NCBI GenBank assembly: GCA_000002445.1
Contig: CP000068.1
Coordinates: 1 to 64,000 of the forward strand
DNA: 64,000 bases
Source: Trypanosoma brucei
Taxonomy: Eukaryota
Reading direction: 5' to 3'
Position numbers and translations under genes: made by a program. Below, one piece after another: positions 6,857-63,872 of the stretch (the stretch's first letter is position 1; each line of letters starts with the position of its first letter). The notes beneath the pieces are model-generated. The model saw only the letters and a program-made list of their open reading frames with translations. It was not told the origin of the DNA and ran no database searches.

Positions 6857-6862
6857 ATGGAC

Positions 6863-10358: not shown

Positions 10359-10418
10359 TCGATTTCTCTTCTGTTACTGGACCTTGGCACCACGTTAAGA
10401 TGGCCGGCATCGCCAGGG
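10340..10418 (-). promoter_or_regulatory. Pr77-like internal promoter/5' hallmark sequence of ingi (first ~79 nt).
   Basis: Reverse complement of 10340-10418 begins CCCTGGCGATGCCGGCCATCTTAACGTGG.... This is the conserved first ~79 nt shared by ingi, RIME, DIRE and L1Tc, recalled from established knowledge. Confidence 0.7.
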
Positions 10419-21595: not shown

Positions 21596-21613
21596 GGGAG
21601 AGAGAGAGAGAGA
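21596..21613. repeat. (GA)n microsatellite.
   Basis: Sequence gagagagagagagagat seen directly. Confidence 0.8.
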
Positions 21614-24600: not shown

Positions 24601-25864
24601 TTAGGGACCTTTGTAGGCCCTTATTGTCATTCATGATCGCAGGAAATATATGGGCGAAAGGTCTGAATAGCAATCCCGGATGTGGGAACATGCGTTGTCT
24701 TACTTTTTTTTTTTACGAACTGTGCCGGCCTTTTTGAGATGTACACCATAAGGCGAAAGATATGTGATACAGGACCAAAGAGACTGGACAGTGGAAAGAA
24801 GTGGATCCAATAAGTTTTGAAGCCTAATATTCTGATAATGATATGGAATGCATACAATACCGACTGCTTTGTAACAATGATATTGTCACATCACAGCACT
24901 GCAGGACATATTACAAATGCGTTCCTTGACAAAAAAAAAACGCTTGAAGTGAACCGACAAGTGCTCCATCCCCCTTTTAGTAAACCAAAAACCGAAACAT
25001 CAATAGGTAAGCGCCGTTGTCCACTGAAAATAACGGACGCGAGGATGCTAGCAAAGCAACCCGTTGGCGTGTATATGGCGGTTGGAACTGTTCCTCAGAA
25101 AAAGTGTATCTATGCGGCAGCTGCAGCATCAAAACCCAAGGTTTGAGCACCGGTGAAGAGACAGAAACGTAAGAGAGCACTGCGGCGGGAAACCGTTCGG
25201 TTATTAGCGAGAGAAAGTTATCCAATGAGGGTGGGCTGTCAATGAGGTTTCGTTGATGCATGTGAAGATTAAGCGTCCAATGAAGGAGAAAATGGAACAC
25301 AGATTGCTGGTGTGGACAATGTCTGTGTTTGAGACCGTTGAGTATTACGCCTCGCTTAGCCGCTTTTTATCTTACTCCAATTTCATATTAAAATGAAAAT
25401 GAGAAGACTTTGAACCGTGTCTTATTTGCATTATTCTGAGCGGTGGTGGTTCAATAACATCCACCTTTCTCCGTTCCCAGCTCATTCGAAACATTTTTCT
25501 GGGGAAAAAAATCCCGGAATGCTGTAACACAGTGAAGCAAATGATACTTAAAACATTGTTATGATTGTATGTGTGTGATTACTGGGAGATGCTCTTATGC
25601 TTTCTTTGATATTACAACTTAAGTGATATGCGTGACTCGCATGGTGTAAGTCTGTGCTTCTCCATGTATTGAGCAAATTTCAGAGAATCTGTATATCGCC
25701 ACCGATGGGCTTAAAATTCCTAAGCACTATGTGGAGGTGATGACAGGCGTGCATATCAAAATTTGTTTTTGCGAAACTCTTCTTTATGCCCTTGGTAATT
25801 TATTATGATACTTCTTGTAAGGTTCCGTATACACTTGTGTAGTAGCAGCTTGTGAAGTAAAACA

Positions 25865-26680
25865 ATGCTTAAAATTGCAGCAGTCATTTTTTTGACGCTG
25901 AGGACGTGTAACCCCAGTGTTGTTTTCACACGACAACCGGACGTGCAGGTCACATATGGAGACGAAGGGCCGAGAGAGTACTTCGCTCCTACAGCAGAAC
26001 AGTTGGCACGGGGAAAGATAACTCCAAAACACGAAACTCAGCCGATGGTGGGACCTTTGACCCATGGCAGTATACCCGATGAAAGGAGTGAAGGAGGTGA
26101 AAGTGAGAATAAAAGTAGTGAAAAAGTCAGCCCTAAGGCAAGCGATCTTGAGAACGAGGATGGTACAGTGGTTGAAGTATTACACCAACCAGAGGCGAGT
26201 GGGGCACCTGTTGTTGCAGGTGAGGAAAGCACATATAGATCAGCACAAAAGTCAGAAAGAACAAAAAAACAACATGGCGAGGACGATGAGGGCAAAGGAG
26301 GGAAGAACAGAGAGGATATTTTAGGAATACAAGCAAAAAATCGTAACTACAGCCATGATGCACATCCTGCACCACGAGGTGCAGTCTCGGTGGTTAACCA
26401 AGGAAGCACACAAGGGGTGAAAACCGTGAGCAAACGATCAGTCGATGAGGAAGGAAAGGAGATTTCGCAGCAGCAAACGTCGAGGCAGTATGAAAGCTAC
26501 GTAGCGTTGCCACTGCGAAACGGAATGTCCGAGCATGAAGTGAGTAGACCTTCAGAGGTGGCCTTGGACGATGTGGGTGAACCCTCGTCCTTAAGTGAAA
26601 GTGTACCGAGGGGAAACGGTGCGAGTCGCAAAAGGTATGCGATATTACTCTACGCAGGATTAAGTGTTGTGTTCTCCTGA
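25865..26680 (+). CDS. Hypothetical acidic Ser/Glu/Gly-rich protein (271 aa) with N-terminal signal peptide and C-terminal hydrophobic (GPI-like) tail.
   Basis: 271-aa ORF standing alone in an otherwise ORF-poor 19-kb stretch. N-terminus MLKIAAVIFLTLRTCNPSVVF. C-terminus ...RYAILLYAGLSVVFS. Low-complexity acidic core. No recognised domain. Confidence 0.35.
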   Translation: MLKIAAVIFLTLRTCNPSVVFTRQPDVQVTYGDEGPREYFAPTAEQLARGKITPKHETQPMVGPLTHGSIPDERSEGGESENKSSEKVSPKASDLENEDGTVVEVLHQPEASGAPVVAGEESTYRSAQKSERTKKQHGEDDEGKGGKNREDILGIQAKNRNYSHDAHPAPRGAVSVVNQGSTQGVKTVSKRSVDEEGKEISQQQTSRQYESYVALPLRNGMSEHEVSRPSEVALDDVGEPSSLSESVPRGNGASRKRYAILLYAGLSVVFS

Positions 26681-29600
26681 AAATCATTGCCTTGCGCTGA
26701 TACATAGGCATACAACCAATGAATAAAGTGAGAGTTTGTCGAGGTAGAACTAAGGGTAAGAATAGGTGACTAAGCTGCTACTTTTTCCACCAAAGGGCAT
26801 GTGTATGTAGCTTTGTGCTGACACATGATAAAAGGATCGAATAACTCCAATATAATTATAAATAGGTTACAGAAGTGGAGCGAGTGACTGGAAGAGGGGA
26901 AAAGTAAATCAATGTCCTTCATTGTATAAGCAAAAGGTCACCAGTATTTGAAGTGACACAAATGCAAACCAGAAAACGGTGAACGCCCGTAAGAAAATTG
27001 GCCATGAGAATAGTGAACTTAACCTCAATGCTACTGAGGAAATAGTGGGTGATTTATTTTTTAAGATATGTAACGGGAACTGGTTGGCACCCAGAGGGAA
27101 ACGCACCATGAAGAAAATGGGTAAGGTCTCGGTGAAAGGTGTGGCGGCATCACAAACTTAAAATGTGATGGCAACACAAAATTCCTCGACCACCAAATTG
27201 GAAATCGTATCTGTGAATATTTAAGTATTTTTTAGACAGTGCTTGTTACGAGTAACACATAAAGACATAAATGATTTAATCGAGCAACGAATGGGTTGGC
27301 GAACTGCTGAGGGTACAGTTATATAAAGATCCTTAACTGATTGAGAAAAATTTGCTAAATCAGGCAATTCTTAAAAAGATATGAAGGACTGTTAAAGCGA
27401 TGCTTGACGGTATACGATGAATTATCTAAGGTAAACTACCAAAACGGGTACCCCTAGTGTGTGTACTTGTTGTGTTTTTTTTTTTTAAGCTTGTTGTTGC
27501 GGTCTATTTATCTAAACGAAGAGTGTACACTTTCTGCAATCAGTTTTCGAAGTAATTACCTTTTCAGCACAGAAACAATAACAAACAATAGTGATGCGAC
27601 TGCAAAATGGGGGATTTTGGTAAATTTGGTACGAGCACTCGTTTTTTATCTCCATGGTTAGTTGTGTGTTCGTGTATTTAAGCAAAGCTTGGCTGTAATA
27701 GGAACCAAGACTTGGATTTTGTTTTCTTTCTTGTAACTATGAATCTTTTACTTTGAATGCTATACATTTTCTAAATGTTGTTGCGTTAATAGGAAGTTGA
27801 AGTATTCCGCTTACTCCAGAGGGAAAAAACCGGCTGCTATACGGTTTAGATGGTGGTGTTTGATGATGCTGAGAAATAGATTGGAGCATTGTGGATGCTA
27901 AGCTGCCACGTGGCCGCATTTATTACCGTTCAATTTTTAGACGTGCGTGGCGTTCGTCCGTTCCTCAAATTTGATAAGGGATACGCGTTGTTCTTTGGGA
28001 ACGTGGTTTCCAACGACGAGACGCAGGTAAGGAAATAGTGAAACAGGCTGACTTTAGGTGGTGATTTTTTTCCATAAAATAAAAAGGTTGACTTTTGTCA
28101 GTGAACTTGTTATTGCGCGCTATTGTTTCCCACCGAACCAAAAAAGAACGGAGATATTTCTGCAGACTCCCCAGCGACGCGTCCATGGGATTACTATGAT
28201 GACAGTAGTTGGCGGACGGCGGATGTATTGTGCATTACGCTGTAAAGCAATTACTGTTTTTCCACTTCAACACATTTCTTGCGGACGATATCATAGGTGG
28301 TTGGTTTTCCATTTCTGTATGAGTTACAGGTTGCTGCTATCACTTTGAAACCGCTAGAATCACGAGGGAAATGTCATTTTTGTATTGCACTTACATTCAA
28401 AACCAATTGGGCAGCGCTTTGAAGGCAGTGAAGTAGCGTATGGAAATATTTGCGTATTGGTGGTTCTTTAACGTATGAGTGTTACGTTCCTAACGGTGAT
28501 GGAAAAAAAATTAACATATGAATGTGTGTTCAATAATAATTATTATTAAATGCCAAGTTCTCTTACTTTCTGTATCAAACAGTGAGTCTTTTTTTTTATT
28601 TTAATCTCACTTTTTCAAATGCGTATCGAGGTTTAGGAGGCACAATGTTGCTTAAAACTCAACTCTCACGAAAATGACACAAATTAAGGGAAGCCTCTAT
28701 CGCACCCACCATTTCCATGTGTGCAACAGTAAGCGAGTCATCGTAACAATTTTTTTTTGCGCGTGTGAAGTGTGAAATCCTCATGAGAACTCAAAATTCA
28801 CCACAATAATACTCATTATGCAAGGTGCTTTGAGTGGGGAAGGCGGCGCAGACTCAAATATCCAAAACAATTTATTTTCCCATATGGCGGAGCGAACGGA
28901 AGCTGTAGTGAAACACACACTGCAAAGCGAGAAAAGTATATCTCCTAGTGTCGACACTCTCCAACGATGTGAGCACAAAACCCTTCATTTACGAACAGGA
29001 GGCTTCAGTTTGTTTATTTGTTTGTTTGTTTTTGAATCCATTCCTCACATCAGCGTCCAAAATTTAATACAGGGAATTCAGAACCTTTATCATGACCATT
29101 ATTGTTGTGTCTTGTGAGAAGGTACATATTTTATGATAGGAACTTACTGGGCACCAGCAGCCAACAAAGAAATACGAAAGAACACAACAGTGATAAACAT
29201 ATATTACCTTGAAGCTACATGTGTACGTTTGCACGGAATTAGCTCAGTGATGTTTGCGAACTCAGAGAATGAGGAAAAGCGACAGTCAGATGAAATGAAT
29301 AAAATACCAAATGTCGTGGATCAATTAATATGTTTGAAAATAGAGTCTCATGCTGTATAGTCCTTGGAGGCATGAAAATAGATTTAATAACGCTAAGGCG
29401 TGACGGTGTTGAGGCATGTGTTTTTCAACATGCGTTGAAAGGGGTGGGAAATGTCAGTGAATACCTGAGGAAGCGCCAAAACTATTTTTTTTTTTAATGG
29501 CCACAAAATGCTGCAGTGGAGCAGTGTGGAAATAATTTCATTGGATAGAAAACTGTGTGTGGAAAGCTTATTAAAATTATTTGAAATTTATAACTGTTCT

Positions 29601-32600
29601 ACCTGAGTAACTGTGTGCGTGCTTTAGTACAGGAATCCCTTTGTAGTAAAGCTTCTGTATCCTTTACAAAGAAACACTAAGAAGCCGAATTAGTTAGAAA
29701 AGTAAAGCAAATATTTTCATCAAGAGCAATACTCAACATTTTGCTTCAGGACAAAAAAAACACTCATTCTGTGAGAAAAGCATCTGAGGGGACGTGAAGC
29801 AAGAGGTGATAATGTTTTCAGTTTATATGGCTCCGTATGCAATGCAAAGTGGAGTCACATTATAATGGATAACGAAACTCAACTGCTCGGGATGGAGTTT
29901 GTAGATAGAACGCGTGGTGGCAATGTAATGTGGAAGGATGAAGAAGTTAATGTTGTCCCCAAAATTGAGGAAGCTGTTGAGAAGAAACCAGAGTGCAGGG
30001 AAGAAGTTGAAGCAATGGTTCTAACATCTCAAATGGGGTGATAATAAGCCAAGTTTACCGACGGAAGTAACAAAAACATATTCATCCGTAGAGAAGAGCT
30101 CTGTGTATGGAATGTTGTAAGGAGTGGAATTGAATTATGGCGTACACAGCGTGCTTTACCGGAATGTCTTTATTTTCCACGATCATACGCTGCCATTGTT
30201 AACCTTGGGATTGGCAAATCTCAGAATTTTGGTTCTTTCATCCTCTACAAGTTATTGCATTGTGATGCGGAAGAGTTGCCTATTGTTGCGTATTTCTGCG
30301 GCATGGCAGTACTTATATTTGAAACCAACTGACGGACCCTTCGGCATGATCAAGGGAGATAGAAGGTACACAGCTTTCATGCTGGACGGAAGCATGCCAA
30401 GCATTAGTCATTTTTTCTGCTACACCTTTAATGAAAGTGTGCATTTATCTGAGTTGTCTGTGAATTGGGGAAGCGCTTCGACCAGTTCGTTTAATGAGCA
30501 AACTCCCATGGCAGAGTGTTGAACACACCTCATTGCGATGTCGGAATCCGGTGCATCTTCGAGAGGGGACGAGATTAAATGTTCGCGCGCATCCCGTCTT
30601 AAGGATTGCGGCAGTCGGACGGTAACGGACTGCCAGGGGGAGAAGGGAAAGCGGCGAAACCGTCGGTTTTCGGGATGGTGGGAAGTATCGGCGTGATCCT
30701 CCACGTGTGCAAACATGATTCTTTCGGTATCTTTAGAGCGCTCTCAATGTTGAGATCGGTGGTGTTGAGCAGGACGCAGGTATGATCTCAAGTGAGTCGC
30801 AGCGGAATTCCGGGGAACTCTCCTCCCCGAAAAGGATCACCTAAGCAAATAACTGCGCGAGAAAAGGGTAGCTGCCACATTTTGTAGTAAACGTTATCAT
30901 CAGGCCCGGAGGCGGAATCCACAGTGATGACTGGGTGTTGGAAGATTGATATGGCATGGCCTCCTAAGGGTTCATAAGCGTGGAGATTGGCAAAGGATGG
31001 GATCGGTGTGTTGAAGGTTTCGCAAAAAAAAAAAAAGACAAGCGAGTACGAAATACGATCGGTTGATCTAGCTGTCGCACCGGAGCCGCTAATTGCATCT
31101 GTATCGACGTTTTTACACGAACGAAAACAATAACAAAGGAGGAATCGGGTATACGGTGGCCGACATAACGTTTCAAAACAGCCGGGCACGGGGTTCAGCC
31201 ACAACATCTATCAACGGATGATGATGTGCTGTGCAATGGCCCTCGCAGTACATGATGGAAATAACCGGTACGAGGAATGACGCGAGAACGTCCCATGTGT
31301 AACTGGTTTTCACCTCAAGTCATGGTCTTCTACAGGTTATGTGGGGGGAACGAAAATATCAGGAAATTGCGGAAGACAAGGTTTGAAAAGAGTTTTTCGC
31401 TGTCATCGTCATCATTCTTCGGAAAGTCAGTATATGGGTTGTTATTATGGCGGTGCGAACTAGACCAGTCCGACGACGGCCACTGCATTTTCTCCCGGCG
31501 ACTACTGATATTTTCTCCGCCTTGTCCCTTTCCAAACACTTTTAACTCCTGAAGGTTTCGACATCTTTTCACTTCTTCAGCTGTGCTCGCGTCTTCCTTC
31601 TGTTCCCGATGTCAACGACTGCTGTCCTTTTTACCTTTGCAGAATTCGCACGCTCTCAAGAATTTCCTTACATTTTGCACCTCTTCCCAGTTCTCTCGCC
31701 CACATCGTGGTCATTCCTATGCCTTCGCCACGATAGCGTGACGGTTTTTACCATACGCCTCGTCACCGAATCTAGCGCCGGTGTTTCCCGCGCCTGTGAA
31801 CTTTCGCCCATGGTGTCCACGGCAAGTCGTTTCTCAACGATCCTTATTTCGCTGCATTTGCAAGTTGCCGTTGGCTCTCTTTCCCACTTGACGTCATGAC
31901 AACAATGGCTGCGTTCGGCTTTGGCATATGGCTTGTGCACAGCATCTCTTGTTTTGCTTATTTCTTCCGTGTGTCGAGTGAATGCTGCCGTTGGCATTGA
32001 CGTTCCTGAACTCAGCAAGCTCCTGCGATCACTCACTTTCGTGAGTTCCATCAGCCGTAACTGTTGTGCTCTCGAGTTTGGCATAGTTCTTTCGCTCGCT
32101 TAGCGTCAGTTAAATGCCACGGCCATGGGCGTCTCCTGCGCAACAATGCTTTTCTTTATGTCAGCAGCGTCGGCCTTACATATTTAAGCCGTACGTTGCG
32201 TGGGAAGACGCAGCTATGGTTTCAGGGTGGTGAACTCCGTTCGTTTGTTTTATCATCAGCGACGAATTCGATTACACAATTTGTTTTATCCTTCTGTAAC
32301 TTTCCCTTCCCCAGTTTCAACTGTACAGGTTTTCCTGAAAGCCACTCCCATCTGACAAGTTGGTTTGTTTTTTCCTCCCTTTACCGCTTCCAACAAACAG
32401 AACGCCGTCGGCGACACAGCTACATCTCTTTTTCACCTTACCTTCCCCACCGAACAACATCGTTTAAAGATCAATACTTTCGATACAACTTGAGCGCAAG
32501 AAGTTTTTCGGCAGAGATGGCCAAGAATAGTCAAGTCTCACTTCCCTATAACATAGTAATAGAAAAAATATACCATAAATATAAGAGTGTTTTCGTACAA

Positions 32601-33169
32601 ATGAGTTTTACTGAAATATGAGTCATATCTCAATTAAACTTTATTGTCACATATTTAATCCATTCCTTATATTACTCACGAAGCGGAAGTTTCTGAAAGC
32701 GCAGTTTACTCACCTCCCGTGCTCCCCTTTACTTGCCCTTTGGAGACAGCCGCGTGGTTATCTTTCTGAGATCACGTAACTCCATGCAGAATTAATTCTT
32801 CCATCACACAGCACCTTCTCCCTATGGCTAAAGCCTCATGAACCATTGGCATTGGTATGTGTGTTGCAATTCTTACCATATTTTTTAAAATAATAACATG
32901 CATCATAGTAGTGTTGTTCACGCATACATATACCAAACTCTTCAACCTCTTTCAGAAGGCAAATATTCACAAGTTAGCTCTAGTTTCACAAGCACCACTT
33001 GCAATTAAGAACTTCTTTCTTGAGTTGAGGAATTATAAAACCATCCCCATCATATTTGTATGGAAGCATCCGTTACCATCATGGCCACAGTTGCCGCAAC
33101 TCGCTACCTGCTCACTGGTGTTTTCTTTACCAAACTTCACATCCATTTTTGCGTCAGCCGTAACGCATA

Positions 33170-35328: not shown

Positions 35329-35430
35329 TAATAATAATAAATAATAATAATAAATAATAATAATAATAATAAATAATAATAATAATAAATAATAATAATA
35401 ATAATGATAATAATAATAATAATAATAATG

Positions 35431-35462
<32 letters not shown>

Positions 35463-35520
35463 TAATAATAATAAATAATAATAATAATAATAGGAGAGTG
35501 TTGTGAGTGTATCATTATTG
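35329..35520 (+). repeat. 70-bp-type VSG upstream repeat with a greatly expanded (TAA)n/(TGA) tract (~165 bp). Marks the upstream boundary of the VSG array.
   Basis: A long run taataataaataataat...gataataat ends in AGGAGAGTGTTGTGAGTGTATCATTATTG. This matches the 70-bp repeat core (..AGAGTGTTGTGAGTGTGTATATACGAATATTATAATAAGAG) recalled from established knowledge. Confidence 0.8.
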
Positions 35521-41034: not shown

Positions 41035-41050
41035 TTGAAATATTCTAACA
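41035..41050 (+). promoter_or_regulatory. Degenerate VSG 3'UTR 16-mer (TGAAATATTCTAACAC).
   Basis: Matches 13/16 of the TGATATATTTTAACAC consensus. Followed by CTTTTCGATGAAAGTG, as downstream of the other VSGs. Confidence 0.5.
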
Positions 41051-41221
41051 CTTTTCGATGAAAGTGAGCAAATCTTTAAAAATTAATAATTAAAACACTG
41101 GTAAAAAGTGTATTATAGTGGGCTATGGGTGTAAATTAATAGGGTTATAAATATCAAAATGTTACCGTATTTTAATTTTGTTTATTTTATGGTTATTAGT
41201 TAAGGTTATAAAGGTAACGTA

Positions 41222-44384: not shown

Positions 44385-44550
44385 TTTTCGACAAAACTAT
44401 GAAAAATTATGTGAACTTTGAGAATTTAAAAATTTGGTGTTATAGTGACCTATGTGTGTAAGTAAAGGAGTAATAAAGTAAAAAAGAAGGTGATAGTCTT
44501 ATTTTGTTTACTTCATTTTTCTTGTTTATTTAATGTAGAATTAGTTAGTG

Positions 44551-50400: not shown

Positions 50401-51924
50401 ATGGCGAAAATAGTAGGGATTGTCCTAGGGTTACTTGTAATCGCTGACACTCTCCGTAGCGGCCACGCTGCTGGAACGTACGGCGTCACAAAAGCCAGTT
50501 GGCAGCCGCTCTGTGAAGCGACCACAGACCTGAGAACTATTCCGTCAGATGTGGCAGCAAACCTCAAAGCCGGAGTAACAAAAGTTAAAAACATGATCCT
50601 TGACTCCACAAGGGCGGCAATATACAGTCAACTTCAAAAAGGCACCAAAGAAGCGGCCCGGGTAATAACTATTTCATTGTACATGCTGGGAGCAGCTTTA
50701 CGCGCGGTAAGTTACCTGGAGTCCACCGACATAATCAACGGCGTGGACCTTGCGGCAAAGAGTGCGTACTTAAAAGGGCACATCGATGAATTTTTAAAGG
50801 TCGCAGAAAAGACAACAAGGTCAGGGGAACATTGTTTACTGGCTGCCGGGGACACCGGCGCGGCCACATTTGCAGGAGAGTCGCTAAATAGAGTTAACTG
50901 CCCGACCACCATGGTCGACACAACACCGACGAAGGCGTCACTAAAGAAACTATCCAGCAAAGGCCACAAAGGAGCGATGACACCAAGCAACGGAGGCAGC
51001 CACGAGCACCAAGCAAGCGGAACGTACAGGTGCAGGCTGTTTTCAAAGAGCAACGCCAACGGCCTTGCGCACTCCGGCGGCAACGTAGAAGACGGCATAA
51101 AATGGGCAGGAGGCTACTACAGCCTACACAGCACACCAGATAATCCACTGACAGTAGCGGATCTACGCGAAACGCCGGACACGCCACGAGAAGCGAGCAC
51201 AGCATGGCAGCAGGTTTTTACAGCAATATCAAAAGCACCGAACAGCGAGTCAGCCACATACACCAATAACTCAAAGGCGATTGACTCAGACACAGAAGCA
51301 ACCGAACTTCTGTCCCAAGTACTACACAACGAAAAAGGGGAAAATGCCGAAGACATAAAAAAAATGCGTGATGACATTTTTACCACCAAACTTGCAAGCG
51401 TTGTTGACAGCACCTTCGCTAATATTCATAACGCCAAACTACCGGCCAAAATCTCAGGTATTGACAAAGGCAAATCGCTAGGAGAAATCACAGCACCAAG
51501 CGACCTCGCAGCGTTGCTAGCAGCTTTGCTCCGCAAAATAGACACGGAGGTAGCGACACTCAAGAAGAAGCTCGAAACAACAAATGAGCGCCCAGACCCA
51601 GTAAGCGAAGCCACGTGCAATACAATCAAAGGTGAAGCAGACTGCAACAGAGCGGCAGCGTGTAGATACAACACAACAGAAACTTACGAAAATAAAAAGT
51701 TCCAATTTAATGCCTCAAAAGCTTCAGCAAGCGGTGTCCCTGCACCACAACCTCAAACTGGAGGAACCGAAACGACAACAGAAAAATGCAAAGGGAAAGG
51801 AGAGAAAGATTGCAAATCTCCGGATTGCAAATGGGATGGAAAAGAGTGCAAGGATTTCAGTTTTCTTGTAAATATGAAACTTGCTCTGAGTATTTCTGCT
51901 TTTATGAGTTTGGTAGCATTTTAA
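50401..51924 (+). CDS. VSG: Intact variant surface glycoprotein (507 aa) with signal peptide, N-terminal domain, two-subdomain C-terminal domain and GPI-anchor signal.
   Basis: Uninterrupted 507-aa ORF. Starts MAKIVGIVLGLLVIADTLRSGHAAG. The C-terminal domain has characteristic Cys spacing (...EKCKGKGEKDCKSPDCKWDGKECKDFSFLVNMKLALSISAFMSLVAF*). The 16-mer TGATATATTTTAACGC lies 45 bp downstream and a 70-bp repeat ~1.8 kb upstream. Confidence 0.9.
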   Translation: MAKIVGIVLGLLVIADTLRSGHAAGTYGVTKASWQPLCEATTDLRTIPSDVAANLKAGVTKVKNMILDSTRAAIYSQLQKGTKEAARVITISLYMLGAALRAVSYLESTDIINGVDLAAKSAYLKGHIDEFLKVAEKTTRSGEHCLLAAGDTGAATFAGESLNRVNCPTTMVDTTPTKASLKKLSSKGHKGAMTPSNGGSHEHQASGTYRCRLFSKSNANGLAHSGGNVEDGIKWAGGYYSLHSTPDNPLTVADLRETPDTPREASTAWQQVFTAISKAPNSESATYTNNSKAIDSDTEATELLSQVLHNEKGENAEDIKKMRDDIFTTKLASVVDSTFANIHNAKLPAKISGIDKGKSLGEITAPSDLAALLAALLRKIDTEVATLKKKLETTNERPDPVSEATCNTIKGEADCNRAAACRYNTTETYENKKFQFNASKASASGVPAPQPQTGGTETTTEKCKGKGEKDCKSPDCKWDGKECKDFSFLVNMKLALSISAFMSLVAF

Positions 51925-51984: not shown

Positions 51985-52099
51985 TTTTTGGTAAAAACTT
52001 TGCTAAAATGTTAAAATATGAAAAATTTAATGAAAGGTGCATAATATGAGAATTTTGGTATACTTCATTAGGGTAATAAGATATAAAAAATTAGTTATA

Positions 52100-52250
52100 G
52101 TTATAAGAGTAATAATAATAGAAGAGTGTTGTGAGTGTGCATATACGAATATTATAATAGGAGCAGTAATAATAATAAGAGTATTGGTAATAATGATAGA
52201 AGAATTTTGTGGGTGCTAGTATACTTATATTTTAATAATAGTGGCAATAG
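52100..52250 (+). repeat. 70-bp-type repeats, ~2.5 units.
   Basis: AGAGTAATAATAATAGAAGAGTGTTGTGAGTGTGCATATACGAATATTATAATAGGAGCAGTAATAATAATAAGAG...TTTTAATAATAGTGGC. Confidence 0.8.
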
Positions 52251-53863: not shown

Positions 53864-55323
53864 TTGACTAAAGATATGTTCAGGAAAGTAGTCACAATAA
53901 TCGGAATTTTAGCCGCCACAGCTGACAAAGCAGCGGGAGCGGCCAACGACAATGCCAGAGCTTTCAACGCTCTTTGCGCAGTAATTGGCATAGCGTCTTC
54001 TCCGCCTGACGTCGCGACAGAAGACAAAGGTGACAGCATCCCAGCGATCCTAGAAAGTCTAAAACAGCTCAATCTTTCGTTGGCGCCAGAAAGCTCCTAC
54101 AAACTTTCGTTCGAGAAAAAAACAGACGAATCTCAGGAATCACAACACTGGAAAGACAACAGAGACACCTGAGAAAAAAGTAAAAAATTAATCGAAGAAG
54201 GCACCACGTTGATCGACGGCATAAAGCTACTGCGCCCCGGGCCAAGCCATGAAAGGAAAGTCGCAGCGACGATTATAAACCGAACACTAGAGCTGGCGCT
54301 CACCGCAGCGGAAAAGCTCAAACCGGCAATACCAGCTGCAGCAGTAAAAGAACTACAAAACAAACGCTGTATGGCGAGAGCGGGACGCTAACAACTAACA
54401 ATGACGAGCCCTTTCCAGCCTCGGGTACCGCAGCCTGCGGCGGCGGCGACCCAACAAGCCAAAAATCAGGCAGCAGCCTCGCAGCCGACCTGGTCTGTCT
54501 TTGCGCCAAAACAGGCGGCAATGGGGAAGAGTGCGCGGGCAAAAGTGCCGGCACGATAGACTATACAGCCGCAGCCGCAGCGAAAGCAGCCTACGAAAAA
54601 CTACTACCACTGTGCCCGAAAGCCAAAGGCACGAAATTCAACACCGGAGCGACCGCCGCGGCACGTGCAGGGTTTATCACGGCGCTGAAAGAGAACGGCA
54701 AAAGCAATCAAGCCGAAGCCAACATATTAGGTGCAGAGAACGCCAAGCAATGCAACGGCGGCGCCCAAGGCAAATGAGTCTATTACAAAGGCGCACCAGC
54801 GGACGGGCACACACCTATACCGTGGCTAGACGCGCTCGAAACAGCAGAGCGGAAGGTGGAAGAAGCCAAAACAAACGCCCTTGCTAATGACGAAATTTAT
54901 AGTGCAGTTGTAAACCTCAAACAAACAGCCCTATCAGCGTATCTGCGGGCAATTTCAGGAGATGCATCGCTGCCGGTGGACAGCGCCCAGGCAGCAAAAC
55001 CGTCAGGTTCAGAAACGGAAAAATGCGACAAGCTCAAAACAAAGAAGGACTGTGAAGAAAAGGGTTGCCAATGGAAAGGAACTGATAACAAAACTGGCAC
55101 ATGCGAAGCAGATGAAACTAAAGTTACAACTCAGACAAATACAGCAGGCACAGGAGAAGGAGCTTCAGGAGCTACAACAGAGAAATGCAAAGGGAAAGAA
55201 CAAAAAGACTGCAAAGATGGATGCAAATGGGAAGGAACAGAATGCAAAGATTCCAGCTTCCTCCTAAACAAACACTTCGCCCTCAGCGTAGTTTCTGCTG
55301 TATTTGTGACCTTGCTTTTTTAA
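53864..55323 (+). pseudogene. VSG: VSG pseudogene (cassette 6). Signal peptide and N-domain start are present, with internal frameshifts. C-terminal domain and GPI signal are intact. A fossil telomere follows.
   Basis: ORF 53864-54172 starts MTKDMFRKVVTIIGILAATADKAAGAAN. ORF 54856-55323 ends ...EKCKGKEQKDCKDGCKWEGTECKDSSFLLNKHFALSVVSAVFVTLLF*. An exact 16-mer TGATATATTTTAACAC lies at 55373-55388. Confidence 0.8.
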
Positions 55324-55372
55324 TTTTTTCCCCTCTTTTTCTTGCTAAATTTTTTTGCTATTTGAAAACTTC

Positions 55373-55388
55373 TGATATATTTTAACAC
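55373..55388 (+). promoter_or_regulatory. VSG 3'UTR 16-mer, exact consensus TGATATATTTTAACAC.
   Basis: Exact match 50 bp after the VSG 6 stop. Confidence 0.85.
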
Positions 55389-55493
55389 CTAAAAAAATTC
55401 CCGAAAAAATTGAACTGTTTTTGTAAGTTGACTGTATGATTGTCTAGAAATTTTTTCTGACAACTAAATTTTTTTCTTCTTTTCCCGTTTTTT

Positions 55494-55841
55494 TTTGTTT
55501 TTTAGGGTTAGGCTTTTTTTACGTGTTTTTTTTTCAAGGTTTTTTTCCTCTATTTTCTTCGTTCATTTTTCTAGATTTTAAAAAATTTTTTGGTTTAGTT
55601 TTCACTATTTTGAATTTATTTTGCATTTGAATTTTTGACGGGTTTTTTATCTTTAATTTTTTTTAATTTACCGTTTTTTTGCTTTTTAAGTTTTTGAGAT
55701 TTTTTTCGTTTTTGACGGTTTTTTTTCTTAACGCCAGAGATCGTTTTTTTTTTGCTCCCTCTTTTTGTTCGCCGCGCAACGGACGGTGTCTCGGCTTAGC
55801 GGGTTCGGCTTAGAGTGTTTTGGGTTAGGGTTAGGGTTAGG
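55494..55841 (+). repeat. Degenerate telomeric/subtelomeric tract: T-rich region with TTAGGG-like units, ending in (TTAGGG)3.
   Basis: TTTTTTAGGGTTAGGC lies at 55494-55512. CGGCTTAGCGGGTTCGGCTTAGAGTG is degenerate. GGGTTAGGGTTAGGGTTAGG at 55822-55841 is exact. The tract starts ~170 bp after the VSG 6 stop. Confidence 0.7.
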
Positions 55842-55954
55842 TTTTTAATTTTCCTCTTACTAATAATTATTTTTAGCTCAAACCTCGCTGCCAATTGCTC
55901 CAATTCTATTTTAATTTTTTGATTTTTATTGTGCGTTGCAGGGCCTTTTTTTAT

Positions 55955-55966
55955 GAGGACCCTAAC
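55955..55966 (-). repeat. Inverted telomere hexamer pair (CCCTAACCCTTA on the + strand).
   Basis: The sequence ACCCTAACCCTTAT is ~115 bp downstream of the TTAGGG block, in opposite orientation. Confidence 0.5.
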
Positions 55967-56910
55967 CCTTATGCACGGAGCAGAATTTTGTTACGCTTTG
56001 TTCGACGGTTTTTGTTTCTGTGGCGCATAATTGTATTTTTTATATTTTTTCATTAGTGATGCAGCGGCTCTTTTTTAAAAAACAGCAAGACTGGTGCCTA
56101 TTTCCACTGGAGACATTCTCTCTTTATTTTGTACTTGAATTTTAATCTCCCACCGTTACGCTTACGTTAAATTTGTTTTTTAATTTTAGCTGTGCGTTTT
56201 GCGCGCTTTGCGCGGCTTTGCATTTTTTAAAACGGTGGCGCGTGGAGGTTTTGCTGCGCCAAACAATTTGGTTTGTAAGGGAAAATAAATTTAAAAATAC
56301 TAATATTTGGGGAATAGCCGATTATGAAAATTGGAAATTAAATATAAGCGGCACGATCTGTCGCTGCCACCCCACAATTAAAGACGCTCGGCTGCCAGGG
56401 GTGCGTTTTTAACTTCAAATCCGATGAGAGAAAGCATGCAGCAACAGCAACAGGAGATATAGCAACAGATAAGTGCGCTTCCGCATAAAATGCTGAGGGC
56501 TGTGTCAAAATAAGTGGCCCGATTCCTAAAGGAAAGAAAGCTTTTTGTGGTTGTATTACTTACATTGATGGCCAGGACACAGTAATTCATGTTTTTCTCT
56601 CTTCCAGTTTGTTTGTAACCAAAACTTTTCTCTGATGGCTGCTTCCTGTGAGAGTTTCGCAGTATTTTAGTGACTTAAGAATTTTTTCTCAATTTTATAA
56701 ATTTTTGTGAAATTTACTAAATTTTGATATGTTTAAATACCTTTGTGAGGCCTTTAAAAAATATGAAAATTTTAGTAAATTTCACAAAAATTTATATGAT
56801 AACAGCCTATGGGAGTCATGTGACAGAGTGATAGTGTGTCAAAAGAGATTTATGATCTGAAATTTAATATTTTTAATTTTATGAACACTAGTTAGCGGTA
56901 CAATATTACT

Positions 56911-57055
56911 GATAAGGATAATGATAATGATAATAATAATAGGAGAATGTTGTATGTATATACGAATATTATAATAAGAGCAGTAATAATAATAATAATA
57001 GTAATAATGATATGAAACTGTTGTAAGTGTGTAAATACTAATGCTACAATGAAAT
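56911..57055 (+). repeat. 70-bp-type repeats, ~2 units.
   Basis: GATAAGGATAATGATAATGATAATAATAATAGGAGAATGTTGTATGTATATACGAATATTATAATAAGAGCAGTAATAATAATAATAATAGTAATAATGATATGAAACTGTTGTAAGTGTGTAAATACTAATG. Confidence 0.8.
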
Positions 57056-58595: not shown

Positions 58596-59825
58596 TTGTT
58601 CCCAGCTTTTCATGTTAATATTGGTTTCCTGCTGCGGTTACAGCGTCCGAGAATGTCACGCGACCGACCTGTTCCTTCAAGCCTGAAAACTAACACCCTA
58701 GCGCAAATGCAAAGTAAACTCTCTACGCTGCCCGCAGCGCAGACATTCGTTTTGCTTCGCCTGGCGATAACTGTCCATGTTTCCGATTCTAACATCGGGG
58801 CCGGGGAAAATGGAGCATACTACGCCGCGGCATGCTCCATTGTAAGCACGTTGGAAGGGGCAACAAAAATCACAGAAGGCGGCAACTCAGTGGACAGCTT
58901 ACTAGGTGATATCAACGCGATAAACCTTTCGGCCGCGGACCCAGCATTCAGGAAATTAATTAACCCTGAAAAAGACTGGGCGGATTCAGCGGCAAAAGAA
59001 GAGGTAGGTACAAACAGCTTTGCTTCAGACTGGGAAAAACGCTACGGATCGTGGAGGGCGGCGGCGGTTAAAATAAAAAACAACGAAGCAGCGTACTCAG
59101 AGTTCAAGCGCGAGAAAATCTCATCTGTAGCTCAAAAGACAATACGAGCAGCAACCGAAGCAGAAACGGCACTATCAACTGACTCAGCGCTGTGCGACCA
59201 AAAAAGCAAGATACAAACCATGGTTACCAATGCAAAAGCAGCACTGTATGAATCGGAGACAGGAAATGACGACGAGCAGGCGCCGGACCTAACCAACCGC
59301 ATCAATAAATGCGGAAAGGACGACGGAACTGGCGGTGACATCGCCGGGGAAAGTCTGAGAACGGACATAATCTGTATATGCTCGAAACAAGGCGGCGACA
59401 CCGGAAAGTATTGCTGCGAAGGCTGCGACGGTGCACCGGCAACAGCGTGGGCGGCCAAAACAAACAGCCCAACGATCTGGAAAGCACTCAAGCAAAACTG
59501 CGCGACCCTCTACCCAACTATTCCGCTAAGCACAGCAACATTAACGACGGCCGTAGCACACCTGCTCTCTTTAAGCTTAAAAGCACAAGGCATAACAACA
59601 CCCAAACAATTTTTTCTGGGAACACTGCTAACCACCGGAGCACAAGGCTGTGCCGGAAGTTCCGCAAACACATATGGCTATTGGGTTCGATACAAAACAA
59701 CTACGGCAGGAGCCTTAACATCAGCAAGCATACCATGGCTAACGCCTGCCAAAGAAGCCGCTGCAGCAGATTCTATAAAGCAAAACCAACAGAAGATCGC
59801 TAGAATTGAACTTTTTCGAATTTGA
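58596..59825 (+). pseudogene. VSG: VSG N-terminal domain (409-aa ORF) truncated at its 3' end by the ingi insertion. There is no C-terminal domain or GPI signal.
   Basis: B-type-like N-domain with Cys spacing ...ICICSKQGGDTGKYCCEGCDGAPAT.... The ORF stops at 59823-59825, exactly where ingi copy 2 homology begins at 59822. No CTD cysteines or hydrophobic tail are present. Confidence 0.75.
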
Positions 59826-60264: not shown

Positions 60265-60774
60265 TCACCTGCGGCCGGCTCCGTTCAACCGCAATGAGAA
60301 ACTGTGCCAGCCTTTTAGAGAAACATATATCCTGCACACACACACACCTTCTACCGCAAACCCGACACGTAACTCCTTCAAACTGGGACAGCTCATCAAG
60401 TGCAGCGACGTTTCTTCGCAGTCGCCGCGTTGGCTGGTAACAGCACGCTCTACCTTCATACCGTGCATCTTCTTTTGATGTAGGGTGAGGCCAGTTTTGC
60501 TAGCACACTGCCTTCCGCATGTCGGGCACACCAACATGGATGTGTTTGTATGCGGGGAATCAGTGGCACACAATTTTGTGCTTTTGCTGCATTTAAGCTC
60601 GACTCCCTCACCTTTGTGGAAAGCCTTACAGTGTCGGATGAGGGAGTTCCTGCAACTGAGCACTTTTTGACACACACCACACTGCACCTCGCCTTTCCCC
60701 GGGACGTCAACGTTTCCCTCACGGGCACGCTTACGAGGGAATTGCACTACCACCACGGTACCATCCTCCGTCAC
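60265..60774 (-). pseudogene. ingi copy 2 ORF segment (C-terminal zinc fingers, 169 aa).
   Basis: CGVCQKVLSCRNSLIRHCKAFH and CPTCGRQCASKTGLTLHQKKMH, near-identical to copy 1. Confidence 0.8.
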
Positions 60775-60897
60775 TATGCTCTTATGTTTGAATTTCTGGT
60801 GTAGTGACAGGGAAGAGCGTGTACCGAAGCTCGCCTCGCACAGGTCACATTGAAACGGCAGCTTCCGTGTATCCTGAGGGACTGGCGCTGCTGGGGC

Positions 60898-62493
60898 TCA
60901 ACCATCTCCTTGCAATGAGTCTTCGTTCTCTCGCCCCCTTTTCACGCGGCAACTACCGCTATCTATGCCATGTATTGTTCTAAGGTGGTGTAATAGTCGG
61001 CCTGGCACTGCGAATTTGGAGGCACAGATGGTACAATGAAGCACCTGCGGTCTCATCGGGACTCGTGTGCTCGATGGTGGAGAAACGATCGCCACCACTG
61101 GAGGGGGCTCCGGGGGGATGTCCACTGCAGGTGTTGCATCGCCGTATTTGATCCTCCGGAGTGCATCAGCTCGCACAAAGCCGTGTTTGTTTACCATATG
61201 CGTTACAGCACTTGAGTGGCATTGGTATGTGGCATCACATTCCGTACATTTGGTCGGTTCGGAGGTTTTATGAAGAATGCGTGTCGCAACAGTTGGGGCT
61301 GTTTGTATTGTTGGTCCTATCGCTGCATGTTGCGGGTTACACCATCGGCACTGTGGAGGCACACTCGGGTTGATCTTTCGCAACATCCATCCATAGTGTC
61401 TTGAAGACCCAACCCGAAAGCGTGCCAGTGCCGTTTCTTCTTCCCTCGTTAGTTCTTCTTTATGTTTTGTTGGAAAGTGGTTGCCCGTGACACCAAACCT
61501 ATGAGTGTTCTCATGGACTTCTTCCGACCTAAGCACTCGCTTCGCATAAGCAATGATGTTGGGGATCCATGTGTCTCGCAACTGTGGCAAATCTGCAGCC
61601 TTTTTGGCCATTTCATCACAAACCTCATTCCGTTTCACGCCACAATGGCCAAACACAAATTGCAGTCTGATACGCAACTTCCTTCTCTGAACTTGAAGCA
61701 GAAGCCTCCATAGTCGTCTCATAATTGGGTCCGTTACTGCTAGGGGGCCTGTCTGCAGTGCTGTTAACATTGACAGCGAGTCAGAGAAGATGGACAACCT
61801 GCTCGGTGTGCTTCTGTATGCCGGAAGCCATTTCAGCAGCGGTTGCAGTCCTATCTCTAATGCTACGCATTCCGCTCTGTAACTGCATGAGAGTTCCCCT
61901 GCTCCTGTCTTAGGTGCACAAATCAGCGTGTTGTTTCTATAGAGCAAGGCAGCTGCTCCGGACTTCTCACCAAGGAACACGGATCCATCAGTCCACAATT
62001 CGTAGTGCTCTCGCCGCGGTGGCTCCTTCCCCCTCCGTGCAAAATGCCGTTCAATCCACTTTTCGGAAGCCTCCCTTTTGAAATCGTCAGGGTCATCAGC
62101 GCACACAGGCTTTATCTGCGTGTGAAATAGCGGTCGGCAGCTGTAGCGGAGCGTCGATGTCCCTAGTGGGTGCTCGCGAGGCTCAATGTGGAGGTGAAGG
62201 TAAGACAGCATGATGCGGGAATGTAAGACTCTGACTGGGTGTTTGGTGTGGTATACTTCCTCAGCACTGCGGTGCAAACATCCGCCTCGTGACTCACGCA
62301 TCAGCATGAATTTCATGCTGTGCACAAGAGTGGCCGTCTTGAGTGGCAGGAGGTTTGCTTCCAGCAGAGAGTCCTCTTTGCGCGTCCCATGCGGTATGCC
62401 AGCTATGATGCGACTGGCTTTGTGTTGTGCTGATGCAAGGAGGTCGCGACTTCGTTCCGAAGCGTCCCAGTACCATACCTCAATGCCATACAT
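60898..62493 (-). pseudogene. ingi copy 2 ORF segment (RNase H and zinc fingers, 531 aa).
   Basis: Near-identical to the C-terminal part of 6863-9412 plus the N-terminal part of 5606-6856. Here this is read in one frame, so the stop that separates those segments in copy 1 is absent. Confidence 0.8.
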
Positions 62494-62789
62494 GGTGTGT
62501 GCCTGTACGAGTGCTAGATAAAAAGCTCTCAGTACTTGTCGTCTTGGCCCCCATGTAGAAGCTGAGATGGCTGCTATCTACAGTAGTCTGAAGTCCATCT
62601 TGCGTCTTGTTTCGGCCGCATGTGTTGCCATCCCCTGCAGACACTGGAATGTTACTCCTAGAAGCTTCGGTGTCCTGTCAGCTCCTATTCTTTCGCCGTC
62701 CAGTTGTAATGTAAGTGGGTGGCGCTCTATACACCCGAAGAGTGTGCACTTTGTTTTCGCTACGTTGACAGACATGAAGTACTCTTTTG

Positions 62790-63872
62790 TCACCATTGTA
62801 ACACTACGTTGTGGCCACATTGCAGTGTGTGGTTGATGACATCCCTCTCTGTGTGCCTCGCAAGTAGCGTTAGGTCATCTGCAAAGAATCCGTGCTGCTG
62901 CAACGACACTTCTTCAAGGCGTTGGCTCAACGAGTTCATGACAATAATGAACATTATCGAACCAGGGACAGTTCCTTGTGGCACTCCTCGCTCAAATGTT
63001 CTGCTGCTGGAAAGCTTCTCCTTGAATCTCACTCTGCCAGTTCGGTTACTCAGAAATGATACGCACCACTTCACAATGTGGGGTGATACCTTCATTCTGT
63101 GCATTTCCCTCGCAATTTTGTCGTGGTCTACTGTATCAAATGCCTTCTCGTAGTCAACGAATACAGCACCCGTACGATGTTGGGGCGTGGGGCGGCAAAG
63201 GGCAGCGCGGACGTGCAGGAGTTGTTCGAGCGTTGACCATCCGGGGCGAAAGCCTGATTGCTGCGGCGTCAGCTGGGACTCAACAGTGTCTCTAAGCCTC
63301 GCGGCAATTATGCGTTCCATGACTTTGCAGAGACAGCTCGTGAGCGTCACAGGCCTGTAAGAATCGAGGTCCTCCTCCTTTTTTCCGGCCTTCAGGATGG
63401 GAATGATAACACCAGTCTTCCATGCAAATGGCACGACTCCCGTTCGTAGGCTCTCATTGAATAGCCTCAGAACAACATCCAGCGCTGTTCTGCCGAGATG
63501 TTGTATTGCCTCGTTGTATAAGCAATCAGGTCCGGCTGCGGATCCACTCGGTAGCAGTTTGATCGATCTCCGTAGTTCAGCCATCGTGATGGGACTGAAC
63601 TCACTCGCTATCGTCTTTATTGGTGCCGGTGGGTGTGAGTCGGGGTGCCTTCTTGCGCGGGACGAGTGCAGTTTACTGAACCTCTCAGCTTGACGGTAGT
63701 CCGTGATGGCCGCGTTATCAACAAGTACAGCCGGTGTGGTTAGTGGTCGTGGCGCATATACCTTCTTGACAATGTGCCAACTGCAGCGGTCTGACACCGC
63801 AAGTCTGGAGCATAGCGTGCTCCATCTCTTCTTTGTGGTACAGTCCAGGATCTGCTTACGCGTGGCTACCAA
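62790..63872 (-). pseudogene. ingi copy 2 ORF segment (reverse transcriptase, 360 aa).
   Basis: Contains GVPQGTVPGSIMF and HGFFADDLTLLA. Homologous to the RT part of copy 1. Confidence 0.8.

What the first reader, a model, noticed from the sequence alone, without database searches (positions are those of the whole stretch)
53864..55970. Fossil telomere immediately downstream of an internal VSG pseudogene
VSG 6 ends with an intact C-terminal domain, GPI signal and a perfect 3'UTR 16-mer. A T-rich tract seeded with TTAGGG-like units follows (55494-55841, ending in an exact (TTAGGG)3), then a short inverted CCCTAA block. The array then continues with another 70-bp repeat and VSG. This is the arrangement of a telomere-adjacent VSG, as in expression sites or minichromosome ends. 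Here it appears to have been internalised, either by telomere healing followed by further array addition or by end-to-end fusion. The sequence shows the repeats directly. Former telomeric status is inference.
Basis: partly seen in the sequence, partly recalled or inferred. Interest (0 to 1): 0.7.

Follow-up and report, generated by a model that had tools for sequence, protein, structure and literature searches.

The report
Telomere-type VSG flank stranded inside array
A dead surface-antigen gene inside a Trypanosoma brucei gene array still carries the T-rich downstream sequence and a short TTAGGG tract typical of genes next to a chromosome end, so it probably once sat at or was copied from a telomere; this is an instructive footprint but not a new kind of element.

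Summary
The window is T. brucei TREU927 chromosome 5 VSG array DNA. VSG6 (53876-55323) is a B-type VSG pseudogene with an intact C-terminal domain and a perfect 16-mer. Downstream lie an exact 20-nt telomere tract (55822-55841, G-strand pointing away from the gene), an 11-mer (55502-55512) and an inverted 10-mer (55960-55969).

Corrections:
- Between the two forward sites, telomere k-mers are at chance level.
- The T-rich block does not end at the tract. It runs to about 56200.
- A truncated VSG C-terminal remnant (about 56340-56740) lies before the next 70-bp repeat.

VSG6's flank is unlike the four array-type 3' flanks in the window. The gap from the 16-mer to the next 70-bp repeat is 1545 nt, against 120-230 nt for the others. 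The flank does match published descriptions of telomere-proximal VSG flanks: TTAGGG-like repeats, 200-1590 nt from VSG to telomere, and a T2AG3-like tract between VSG221 and its telomere.

Best reading: a telomere-type VSG cassette was internalised by an illegitimate join inside another VSG. The 20-mer could be that flank's own internal tract rather than a remnant of the terminal array. End-to-end fusion is not supported. I could not retrieve real VSG-telomere junction sequences, so homology is untested. This is a new member of a known kind, of modest interest.

The parts
52108..52230 (+). 70-bp repeat(s) heading the VSG6 cassette. It begins about 125 nt after the 16-mer of the preceding intact VSG (50401-51924).
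   Evidence: Sequence read. 70-bp core match at 52124-52178.
53876..55323 (+). VSG6, a B-type VSG pseudogene with two in-frame stops and one frameshift. It has a complete C-terminal domain and GPI signal.
   Evidence: Translation. Pfam VSG_B and Trypan_glycop_C. 77% identical to VSG 1125.2044 (E 9e-230).
55324..55388 (+). Canonical VSG 3'UTR, including a TTTTCCCCTC element and a perfect 16-mer TGATATATTTTAACAC (55373-55388).
55389..56200 (+). Strand-asymmetric T-rich block (42-61% T per 100 nt). It is unique in the window and runs through and beyond the telomere-like tract. I interpret it as a telomere-type VSG 3' flank.
   Evidence: Composition. No self-similarity in the window. Divergence from array-type flanks.
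55502..55512 (+). First telomere-like site, TTAGGGTTAGG (11 nt exact). Its distal edge TTAGGGTTAGG(C/T)TTTT is the same as that of the main tract.
   Evidence: family D11.
55800..55844 (+). T2AG3-like tract. About 22 nt of degenerate units (GGGTTCGGCTTAGAGTGTTTTG) lead into the perfect GGGTTAGGGTTAGGGTTAGG (55822-55841). The G-strand reads away from VSG6.
   Evidence: 0 of 100 shuffles give a match.
55960..55969 (-). Inverted telomere-like 10-mer (CCCTAACCCT on the + strand). It is weak on its own.
56340..56650 (+). Remnant of another VSG (VSG-X): only the last C-terminal subdomain and a decayed GPI signal. The junction with the T-rich block lies upstream of about 56340-56460.
   Evidence: tblastn hit at 56465-56629 to P0012 residues 453-508 of 522 (E 5.5e-7). 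BLASTP E 5e-9. No Pfam hit.
56698..56742 (+). VSG-X 3'UTR remnant, 76% identical to the VSG6 3'UTR, with a 16-mer-like TGATATGTTTAAATAC (56725-56740). An array-type flank follows.
   Evidence: (family D2).
56901..57016 (+). 70-bp repeat of the next cassette.
58596..59825 (+). Next VSG (B-type N-terminal domain ORF). It shows that the array continues distally.
   Evidence: Pfam VSG_B E 5.4e-43.

Best explanation
VSG6 and the roughly 1 kb after it form a telomere-type VSG cassette now stranded inside a subtelomeric array on T. brucei TREU927 chromosome 5.

Layout of the cassette:
- a 70-bp repeat;
- the VSG;
- a canonical 3'UTR;
- a T-rich, strand-asymmetric flank holding a short degenerate-to-perfect T2AG3 tract, with the G-strand pointing away from the gene.

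This is the organisation described for VSGs next to chromosome ends in expression sites, on minichromosomes and at array termini.

Proposed origin (inferred): the cassette either was once the terminal gene of a chromosome arm or was copied from such a locus. It became internal when that end, after loss of its terminal repeats, was joined to another array, or was extended by break-induced copying of one. The join was illegitimate and fell inside the C-terminal domain of another VSG. That VSG's last roughly 100 codons, 3'UTR, array-type flank and 70-bp repeat now follow at about 56340-57016.

The 20-nt perfect tract is either a residue of the old terminal array or, about equally likely, the internal T2AG3-like element that telomere-proximal flanks carry upstream of the true telomere.

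Present-day role (inferred): none is required. The tract could seed a new telomere if the chromosome broke distal to it. The flank also gives VSG6's intact 3' end expression-site-like downstream homology.

What is shown and what is inferred: the anatomy, the statistics and the contrast with array-type flanks are shown here. The telomeric origin and the joining mechanism are inferred.
For: - Identity: VSG5 in the window is exactly XP_844703.1 of TREU927, on a 1,608,198-bp record.
- Anatomy.
- The exact 20-mer telomere tract is absent from 100 shuffles.
- All top telomere-like alignments in 64 kb cluster at 55502-55970.
- The flank is unique in the window, and it is the only region with more than 48% T on either strand.
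- Four other VSG 3' ends share an array-type flank (53-64% identity) and reach the next 70-bp repeat within 120-230 nt. VSG6's flank is 41-44% identical to them, and the gap is 1545 nt.
- Two T. equiperdum VSG loci (L001, L002) also lack telomere-like 12-mers and any T-rich tract.
- Literature:
  - GGGTTA-like sequences lie between the VSG and the telomere in expression sites (PMC11229358).
  - The VSG-to-telomere distance is 200-1590 nt (PMC2567434).
  - The VSG221 site has a 106-bp T2AG3-like tract proximal to the telomere, and it seeds de novo telomeres (PMC1807955; PMC3610638).
  - Arrays can end in a telomere-proximal VSG (PMC12137147).
- The last roughly 75 codons of VSG6 are 100% identical to ARB50794.1, whose upstream part is 65-90% identical. 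They are only 51-60% identical to VSG6's closest full-length relative. This modular 3' end fits the 3'-donation pattern seen at telomeric sites.
Against: - No genuine VSG-telomere junction sequence could be retrieved, so homology of 55389-56340 to telomeric flanks is untested.
- Only 20 nt of perfect repeat remain.
- Between the two forward sites, telomere k-mers are at chance level.
- Sequence shared between the parts before and after the tract is only marginally above composition (19 of 300 shuffles reach the observed score). The continuity of the block therefore rests on base composition alone.
- No telomere repeats are present at the inferred join with VSG-X.
- The in-window control set is small: four array flanks plus two T. 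equiperdum loci. A genome-wide census could show that such flanks are common inside arrays.
Confidence: 0.5

Rival explanations
1. Ordinary spacer variant. T-rich blocks with occasional TTAGGG-like motifs are a recurrent class of inter-VSG spacer in T. brucei arrays, spread by array duplication, and say nothing about a telomeric past for this locus.
For: - Between the exact sites, telomere k-mers are at chance level.
- The T-rich block runs on past the tract.
- Only a handful of control flanks could be examined.
Against: - None of the four other VSG 3' ends in the window, nor either T. equiperdum locus, has such a block.
- A 20-nt perfect telomere run in the correct orientation is not expected from composition.
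- The literature treats TTAGGG-like repeats as diagnostic of telomere-proximal VSGs.
Confidence: 0.2
2. Short interstitial telomeric insertion. Telomerase or a repair polymerase added a few TTAGGG units while a double-strand break in an internal spacer was repaired, as proposed for short interstitial telomeric sequences in mammals. On this reading the surrounding T-rich DNA is unrelated.
For: - The perfect run is very short (20 nt) and embedded in otherwise non-telomeric sequence.
- T. brucei can add telomere repeats at breaks near T2AG3-like or G-rich sequence (PMC1807955).
- Break-repair insertion of such sequences is documented in vertebrates (abstracts of PMC7215372 and PMC2246262, listed).
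Against: - It does not explain the unusual 1 kb T-rich flank, the second forward site with an identical distal edge (family D11), or the degenerate units leading into the perfect run.
- It does not explain the truncated VSG remnant at the far end.
Confidence: 0.15
3. Head-to-head telomere fusion. Two chromosome ends fused, leaving TTAGGG and CCCTAA remnants facing each other.
For: Forward (55822-55841) and inverted (55960-55969) telomere-like blocks lie 118 nt apart.
Against: - The inverted block is only 10 nt, close to chance expectation for the window.
- The 118 nt between the blocks are not telomeric.
- T-skew keeps the same sign for about 230 nt beyond the inverted block.
- The next VSG remnant, 70-bp repeat and VSG are all on the + strand. 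There is no mirror-image subtelomere.
Confidence: 0.03
4. Chance or low-complexity coincidence in a T/G-rich stretch.
For: The 10-mer and 11-mer are individually not very improbable. For a 10-mer with up to one mismatch there are 7 matches against 3.4 expected.
Against: - The 20-mer was never matched in 100 shuffles, even allowing three mismatches.
- The three sites cluster within 470 nt of a 64-kb window.
Confidence: 0.01

Closest known systems
3' flank of telomere-proximal VSGs in T. brucei (Aline & Stuart 1989 organisation; for example the VSG221/VSG-2 expression site, AJ271641 nt 211-322)
   Same: - A VSG with a canonical 3'UTR is followed by several hundred nt containing T2AG3-like repeats on the sense strand.
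- The distance from VSG to repeats is within the published 200-1590 nt.
- A T2AG3-like tract is embedded in further non-telomeric flank, as at VSG221.
   Different: - No long terminal (TTAGGG)n follows here. At least 8 kb of array follow instead.
- The tract is shorter: about 45 nt with 20 perfect, against 106 bp at VSG221.
- Sequence homology could not be tested.
Telomere-proximal VSG at the end of a subtelomeric array
   Same: An array-type cassette (a short 70-bp repeat plus a VSG) whose 3' end would face a telomere. Such genes are reported in Lister 427 (PMC12137147).
   Different: Here the cassette is internal and the VSG is a pseudogene.
Short interstitial telomeric sequences of vertebrates
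   Same: A few perfect telomere hexamers at a non-terminal site.
   Different: The vertebrate sequences are clean insertions at repaired breaks, without telomere-adjacent flanking organisation. Here the tract sits in a flank class otherwise associated with chromosome ends.
Fusion-type interstitial telomeric sequences (head-to-head arrays, for example human 2q13; cited from my own knowledge)
   Same: Forward and inverted telomere-like blocks lie close together.
   Different: The blocks do not abut, the inverted one is 10 nt, and the flanks are not mirror images.

Membership tests
Telomere-proximal VSG 3' flank (expression-site / minichromosome / array-terminal type) | VSG with the canonical 3'UTR (16-mer) immediately upstream | tested here: met
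   Perfect TGATATATTTTAACAC at 55373-55388, 50 nt after the stop codon.
Telomere-proximal VSG 3' flank (expression-site / minichromosome / array-terminal type) | TTAGGG-like repeats downstream, with the G-rich strand as the VSG sense strand | tested here: met
   TTAGGGTTAGG at 55502 and a degenerate-to-perfect tract at 55800-55844, both on the + strand.
Telomere-proximal VSG 3' flank (expression-site / minichromosome / array-terminal type) | Distance from VSG to telomere repeats of 200-1590 nt (PMC2567434) | tested here: met
   179 nt from the stop codon to the first site and 499 nt to the perfect tract. It is about 1.0-1.1 kb to the end of the block.
Telomere-proximal VSG 3' flank (expression-site / minichromosome / array-terminal type) | Flank differs from the array-type flank that leads directly into the next 70-bp repeat | tested here: met
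   The gap to the next 70-bp repeat is 1545 nt against 120-230 nt. Identity to the four array flanks is 41-44%, against 53-64% among those flanks.
Telomere-proximal VSG 3' flank (expression-site / minichromosome / array-terminal type) | Runs into a long terminal (TTAGGG)n array at a chromosome end | tested here: not met
   Only 20 perfect nt. A VSG remnant, a 70-bp repeat, another VSG and an ingi element follow. It is therefore at most a former member.
Telomere-proximal VSG 3' flank (expression-site / minichromosome / array-terminal type) | Sequence homology to known expression-site or minichromosome VSG-telomere junctions | not testable with these tools
   - No T. brucei telomeric DNA could be retrieved.
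- Four published expression-site 3'-end (telomere-adjacent) primer sequences have no match within four mismatches.
Interstitial telomeric sequence (short type) | At least two perfect telomere hexamers at a non-terminal position | tested here: met
   20-nt perfect run at 55822-55841, with 8 kb of further sequence distal to it.
Interstitial telomeric sequence (short type) | Clean insertion relative to an orthologous locus that lacks the tract | not testable with these tools
   No orthologous locus from another strain is available.
Fusion-type interstitial telomeric sequence (head-to-head) | Abutting inverted repeat arrays with mirror-image subtelomeric flanks | tested here: not met
   There is a 118-nt non-telomeric spacer, the inverted block is 10 nt, the T-skew sign is unchanged, and + strand VSG features lie on both sides.
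VSG pseudogene (B-type) | VSG N- and C-terminal domains with a disrupted reading frame | tested here: met
   Pfam PF13206 and PF10659. Two stops and one frameshift.

The most novel reading that the evidence does not exclude
This locus may be a footprint of traffic from telomere to archive. On this reading, a VSG that resided at a telomeric site acquired its C-terminal end and 3' flank there by 3' donation. It was then deposited back into a chromosome-internal array, complete with its telomere-adjacent flank. If such footprints are recurrent, they would show that products assembled at telomeres can be stored in the silent archive. They would also mark ready-made sites for de novo telomere seeding that could turn an internal VSG into a privileged telomere-adjacent one.
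Probability: 0.2. Interest if true: 0.6.

Novelty: new member of a known kind. Interest (0 to 1): 0.35.

Why it matters
How the silent VSG archive is built and renewed is an open question, and so is whether genes move from telomeres back into arrays. A telomere-type flank inside an array gives a sequence signature for that movement: a T-rich asymmetric block, a T2AG3 tract and a truncated neighbouring VSG. This signature can be searched for genome-wide and compared between strains.

The tract is also a candidate seed for new telomere formation after subtelomeric breakage. That would change which VSG is telomere-adjacent. Telomere-adjacent VSGs were the only ones newly activated after a cut in the active VSG (PMC12137147).

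On its own, one short fossil tract in a region already known for extreme recombination is not surprising to specialists.

Tried and rejected
RETRIEVING COMPARATOR SEQUENCES
- Exact-protein look-ups of VSG5, of three homologues (P0002, P0018 and P0021) and of a local ORF all returned nothing.
- Only two T. equiperdum contigs came back. They served as negative controls.
- A C-terminal-domain-only protein search failed.
- A profile search of 40 VSGs gave no new contig-linked hits.
- A metagenome scan for the VSG 3'UTR motif found nothing.
- Four published primers from the 3' (telomere-adjacent) ends of expression sites have no match in the window.

TESTS ON THE FLANK ITSELF
- Homology between the parts of the T-rich block before and after the tract is only marginal (19 of 300 shuffles), so I do not claim it.
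- Pfam on translations of 55842-56770 gave no hit. The VSG-X remnant rests on BLAST to one VSG and on 3'UTR similarity.

LITERATURE
- Searches for interstitial or internal telomeric repeats in T. brucei arrays found no explicit description.
- Marcello & Barry 2007 is not held in the library.

REJECTED READINGS
- Head-to-head fusion: contradicted by strand and skew data.
- Chance: contradicted.
- Assembly chimera: a 20-nt tract flanked by unique sequence on both sides gives no reason to suspect one, though I could not check reads.
Full report
SOURCE AND CONTEXT

The window is a Trypanosoma brucei subtelomeric VSG array. Pfam finds A- and B-type VSG domains and ingi-type reverse transcriptase, RNase H and endonuclease ORFs. 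The intact VSG at 50401-51924 is identical to XP_844703.1 of T. b. brucei TREU927, on a 1,608,198-bp record. From my own knowledge of the TREU927 assembly, that is chromosome 5. VSG-domain ORFs lie on the minus strand at 2864-3892 and 14812-15852, and on the plus strand from 36319 onward.

THE OBSERVATION

VSG6 starts at 53876 and stops at 55323. Its conceptual product has VSG_B and VSG C-terminal domains and is 77% identical to VSG 1125.2044. It has two in-frame stops and one frameshift. Its C-terminal domain, GPI signal and 3'UTR are intact, with a perfect 16-mer at 55373-55388.

Three telomere-like sites lie downstream:
- TTAGGGTTAGG at 55502-55512.
- GGGTTAGGGTTAGGGTTAGG at 55822-55841.
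- An inverted CCCTAACCCT at 55960-55969.

The 20-mer is not matched in any of 100 dinucleotide shuffles, even with three mismatches. Across the 64 kb, 12-mers within one mismatch of the repeat occur only at these sites and once at 23207. The three best local alignments to (TTAGGG)n on either strand are these same sites. The enrichment is therefore real and confined to this region.

1. Between the two forward sites, telomere 4- to 6-mers are no more frequent than in local shuffles. The tract is not generally seeded with telomere-like units. Only about 22 nt of degenerate units lead into the perfect run (55800-55844).
2. The T-rich block does not stop at the tract. It continues to about 56200.
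3. A truncated VSG remnant precedes the next 70-bp repeat.
4. The 10-nt inverted block is close to chance expectation on its own.

- Frame 3 of 56340-56650 encodes the last subdomain of a VSG C-terminal domain and a decayed GPI signal. tblastn to P0012 residues 453-508 of 522 gives E 5.5e-7, and BLASTP gives E 5e-9.
- Next comes a 3'UTR that is 76% identical to that of VSG6, with the 16-mer-like TGATATGTTTAAATAC at 56725-56740.
- The 70-bp repeat follows at 56901-57016, and then VSG7 at 58596-59825.

The order along the + strand is therefore:
1. 70-bp repeat
2. VSG6
3. 3'UTR
4. About 1 kb of T-rich block holding the T2AG3 tract
5. The tail of another VSG (VSG-X) with its own array-type flank
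6. 70-bp repeat
7. VSG7
8. ingi element (on the minus strand)

IS THIS FLANK ORDINARY?

Within the window it is not.
- Four other VSG 3' ends (16-mers at 41036, 44369, 51969 and 56725) reach the next 70-bp repeat within 120-230 nt. VSG6 needs 1545 nt.
- The 125 nt after those four 16-mers are 53-64% identical to each other, but only 41-44% identical to the VSG6 flank.
- The region 55324-56860 has no similarity elsewhere in the window.
- It is the only place on either strand where a single base exceeds 48% in 400-nt windows.
- Two T. equiperdum VSG loci, the only external trypanosome DNA I could fetch, have no telomere-like 12-mers and no T-rich tract.

That criterion is not met in the data available, but the sample is small.

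COMPARISON WITH PUBLISHED KNOWLEDGE

- Hall et al. [quoted passage not shown]
- Expression sites contain GGGTTA-like sequences between the VSG and the telomere (PMC11229358).
- The VSG-to-telomere distance in 17 expression-site clones is 200-1590 nt (PMC2567434).
- In the VSG221 site, a 106-bp T2AG3-like tract lies between the VSG and a marker (NPT) inserted near the telomere, hence proximal to the true telomere. It seeds new telomeres after breakage (PMC1807955; PMC3610638).
- Arrays can end in a telomere-proximal VSG (PMC12137147).

The VSG6 flank fits this description in order, orientation and distances. The G-strand is the sense strand. The stop codon lies 499 nt from the perfect tract and about 1.0-1.1 kb from the end of the block.

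The VSG221 precedent also weakens the specific claim that the 20-mer is the fossil of the terminal array. It may instead be the flank's own internal T2AG3-like element. In that case the true telomere once lay near the present join with VSG-X, where no repeats survive.

A circumstantial point concerns the 3' end of the gene. The last roughly 75 codons of VSG6 are 100% identical to ARB50794.1, whose upstream part is 65-90% identical. They are only 51-60% identical to VSG6's closest full-length relative. The 3' end therefore behaves as a separate module, as expected from 3' donation at telomeric sites.

MOST LIKELY MECHANISM

The cassette was telomere-adjacent, either in place or in a donor locus. 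After loss of the terminal repeats, the end was joined to another array, or was extended by break-induced copying of one. The junction fell inside a VSG C-terminal domain, which explains the orphan VSG-X tail. This is an inference. The anatomy and the statistics are shown here.

The alternatives are weaker.
- End-to-end fusion is contradicted by the unchanged T-skew and by the + strand orientation of everything distal.
- A simple telomerase-mediated insertion explains only the 20-45 nt tract. It does not explain the 1-kb flank, the second site with an identical distal edge, or the truncated VSG.
- A generic spacer class remains possible, because a genome-wide census could not be done.

WHAT COULD NOT BE DONE

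No expression-site or minichromosome junction, and no orthologous locus from another strain, could be retrieved. Look-ups, a profile search and a metagenome scan all failed. Homology, which is the decisive test, is therefore open. Literature searches found no explicit report of interstitial telomere tracts in T. brucei arrays. The key 2007 archive paper is not held in the library, so I cannot exclude that this has been noted before.

VERDICT

This is a real and statistically secure short interstitial telomere tract. It sits in a flank that looks like the telomere-proximal VSG type, inside a TREU927 chromosome 5 array. The telomeric-origin reading is the best available, at about 0.5 confidence. 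The narrower claims of a fossil of the terminal array and of a fusion are weaker or unsupported. It is a new instance of known phenomena in a genome compartment known for rearrangement. Interest is modest (0.35). Its main value is as a searchable signature of telomere-to-array movement.

Noticed in passing
window 41052-41175, 44385-44510, 51985-52110, 56741-56866: Four VSG 3' ends share a conserved array-type flank between the 16-mer and the next 70-bp repeat (53-64% pairwise identity, with blocks such as TATAGTG..CTATGGGTGTAA). VSG6 lacks it.
   Followed up: partly
window 56696-56725 / 56767-56796: A 30-nt inverted repeat, 97% complementary, with a 41-nt loop that holds the 16-mer-like element of the VSG-X 3'UTR. 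A similar AAAATATGAAAAATT motif follows the VSG5 16-mer, so this may be a general feature of array flanks.
   Followed up: partly
window 56340-56740: An orphan VSG C-terminal remnant (VSG-X) with its own 3'UTR.
   Followed up: yes
window 55100-55323 (last ~75 codons of VSG6): This segment is 100% identical at protein level to ARB50794.1 (P0003), whose upstream part is only 65-90% identical. The closest full-length relative, VSG 1125.2044, is 51-60% identical here. The C-terminal end therefore behaves as an exchangeable module.
   Followed up: partly
window 55502-55517 and 55831-55846; 55791-55818: Both forward telomere-like sites end with the same edge, TTAGGGTTAGG(C/T)TTTT. A 14-nt tandem duplication, TCGGCTTAG(C/A)G(G/T)GT, lies just upstream of the perfect tract. 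The motif TTTGACGG(G)TTTTT recurs at 55634, 55711 and 56001.
   Followed up: partly
window 2864-15852 versus 36319 onward: VSG orientation changes within the window. B-type VSG ORFs at 2864-3892 and 14812-15852 are on the minus strand, with an ingi element (5606-10358, minus strand) between them. VSGs from 36319 onward are on the plus strand. The ORFs in the interval 17942-32621 have no Pfam match.
   Followed up: no
window 35329-35492: A (TAA)n microsatellite of about 53 units abuts a 70-bp-repeat core fragment at 35496-35510.
   Followed up: no
window 60265-63872: A second ingi-type retroelement lies on the minus strand (zinc-finger, RNase H and reverse-transcriptase ORFs), about 440 nt after the VSG7 ORF. 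VSG7 has no recognisable C-terminal domain in its ORF and may be truncated by the element.
   Followed up: no
window 23207-23218: AGGGTTAAGGTT is the only near-telomere 12-mer outside the finding. It is isolated and at chance level.
   Followed up: yes
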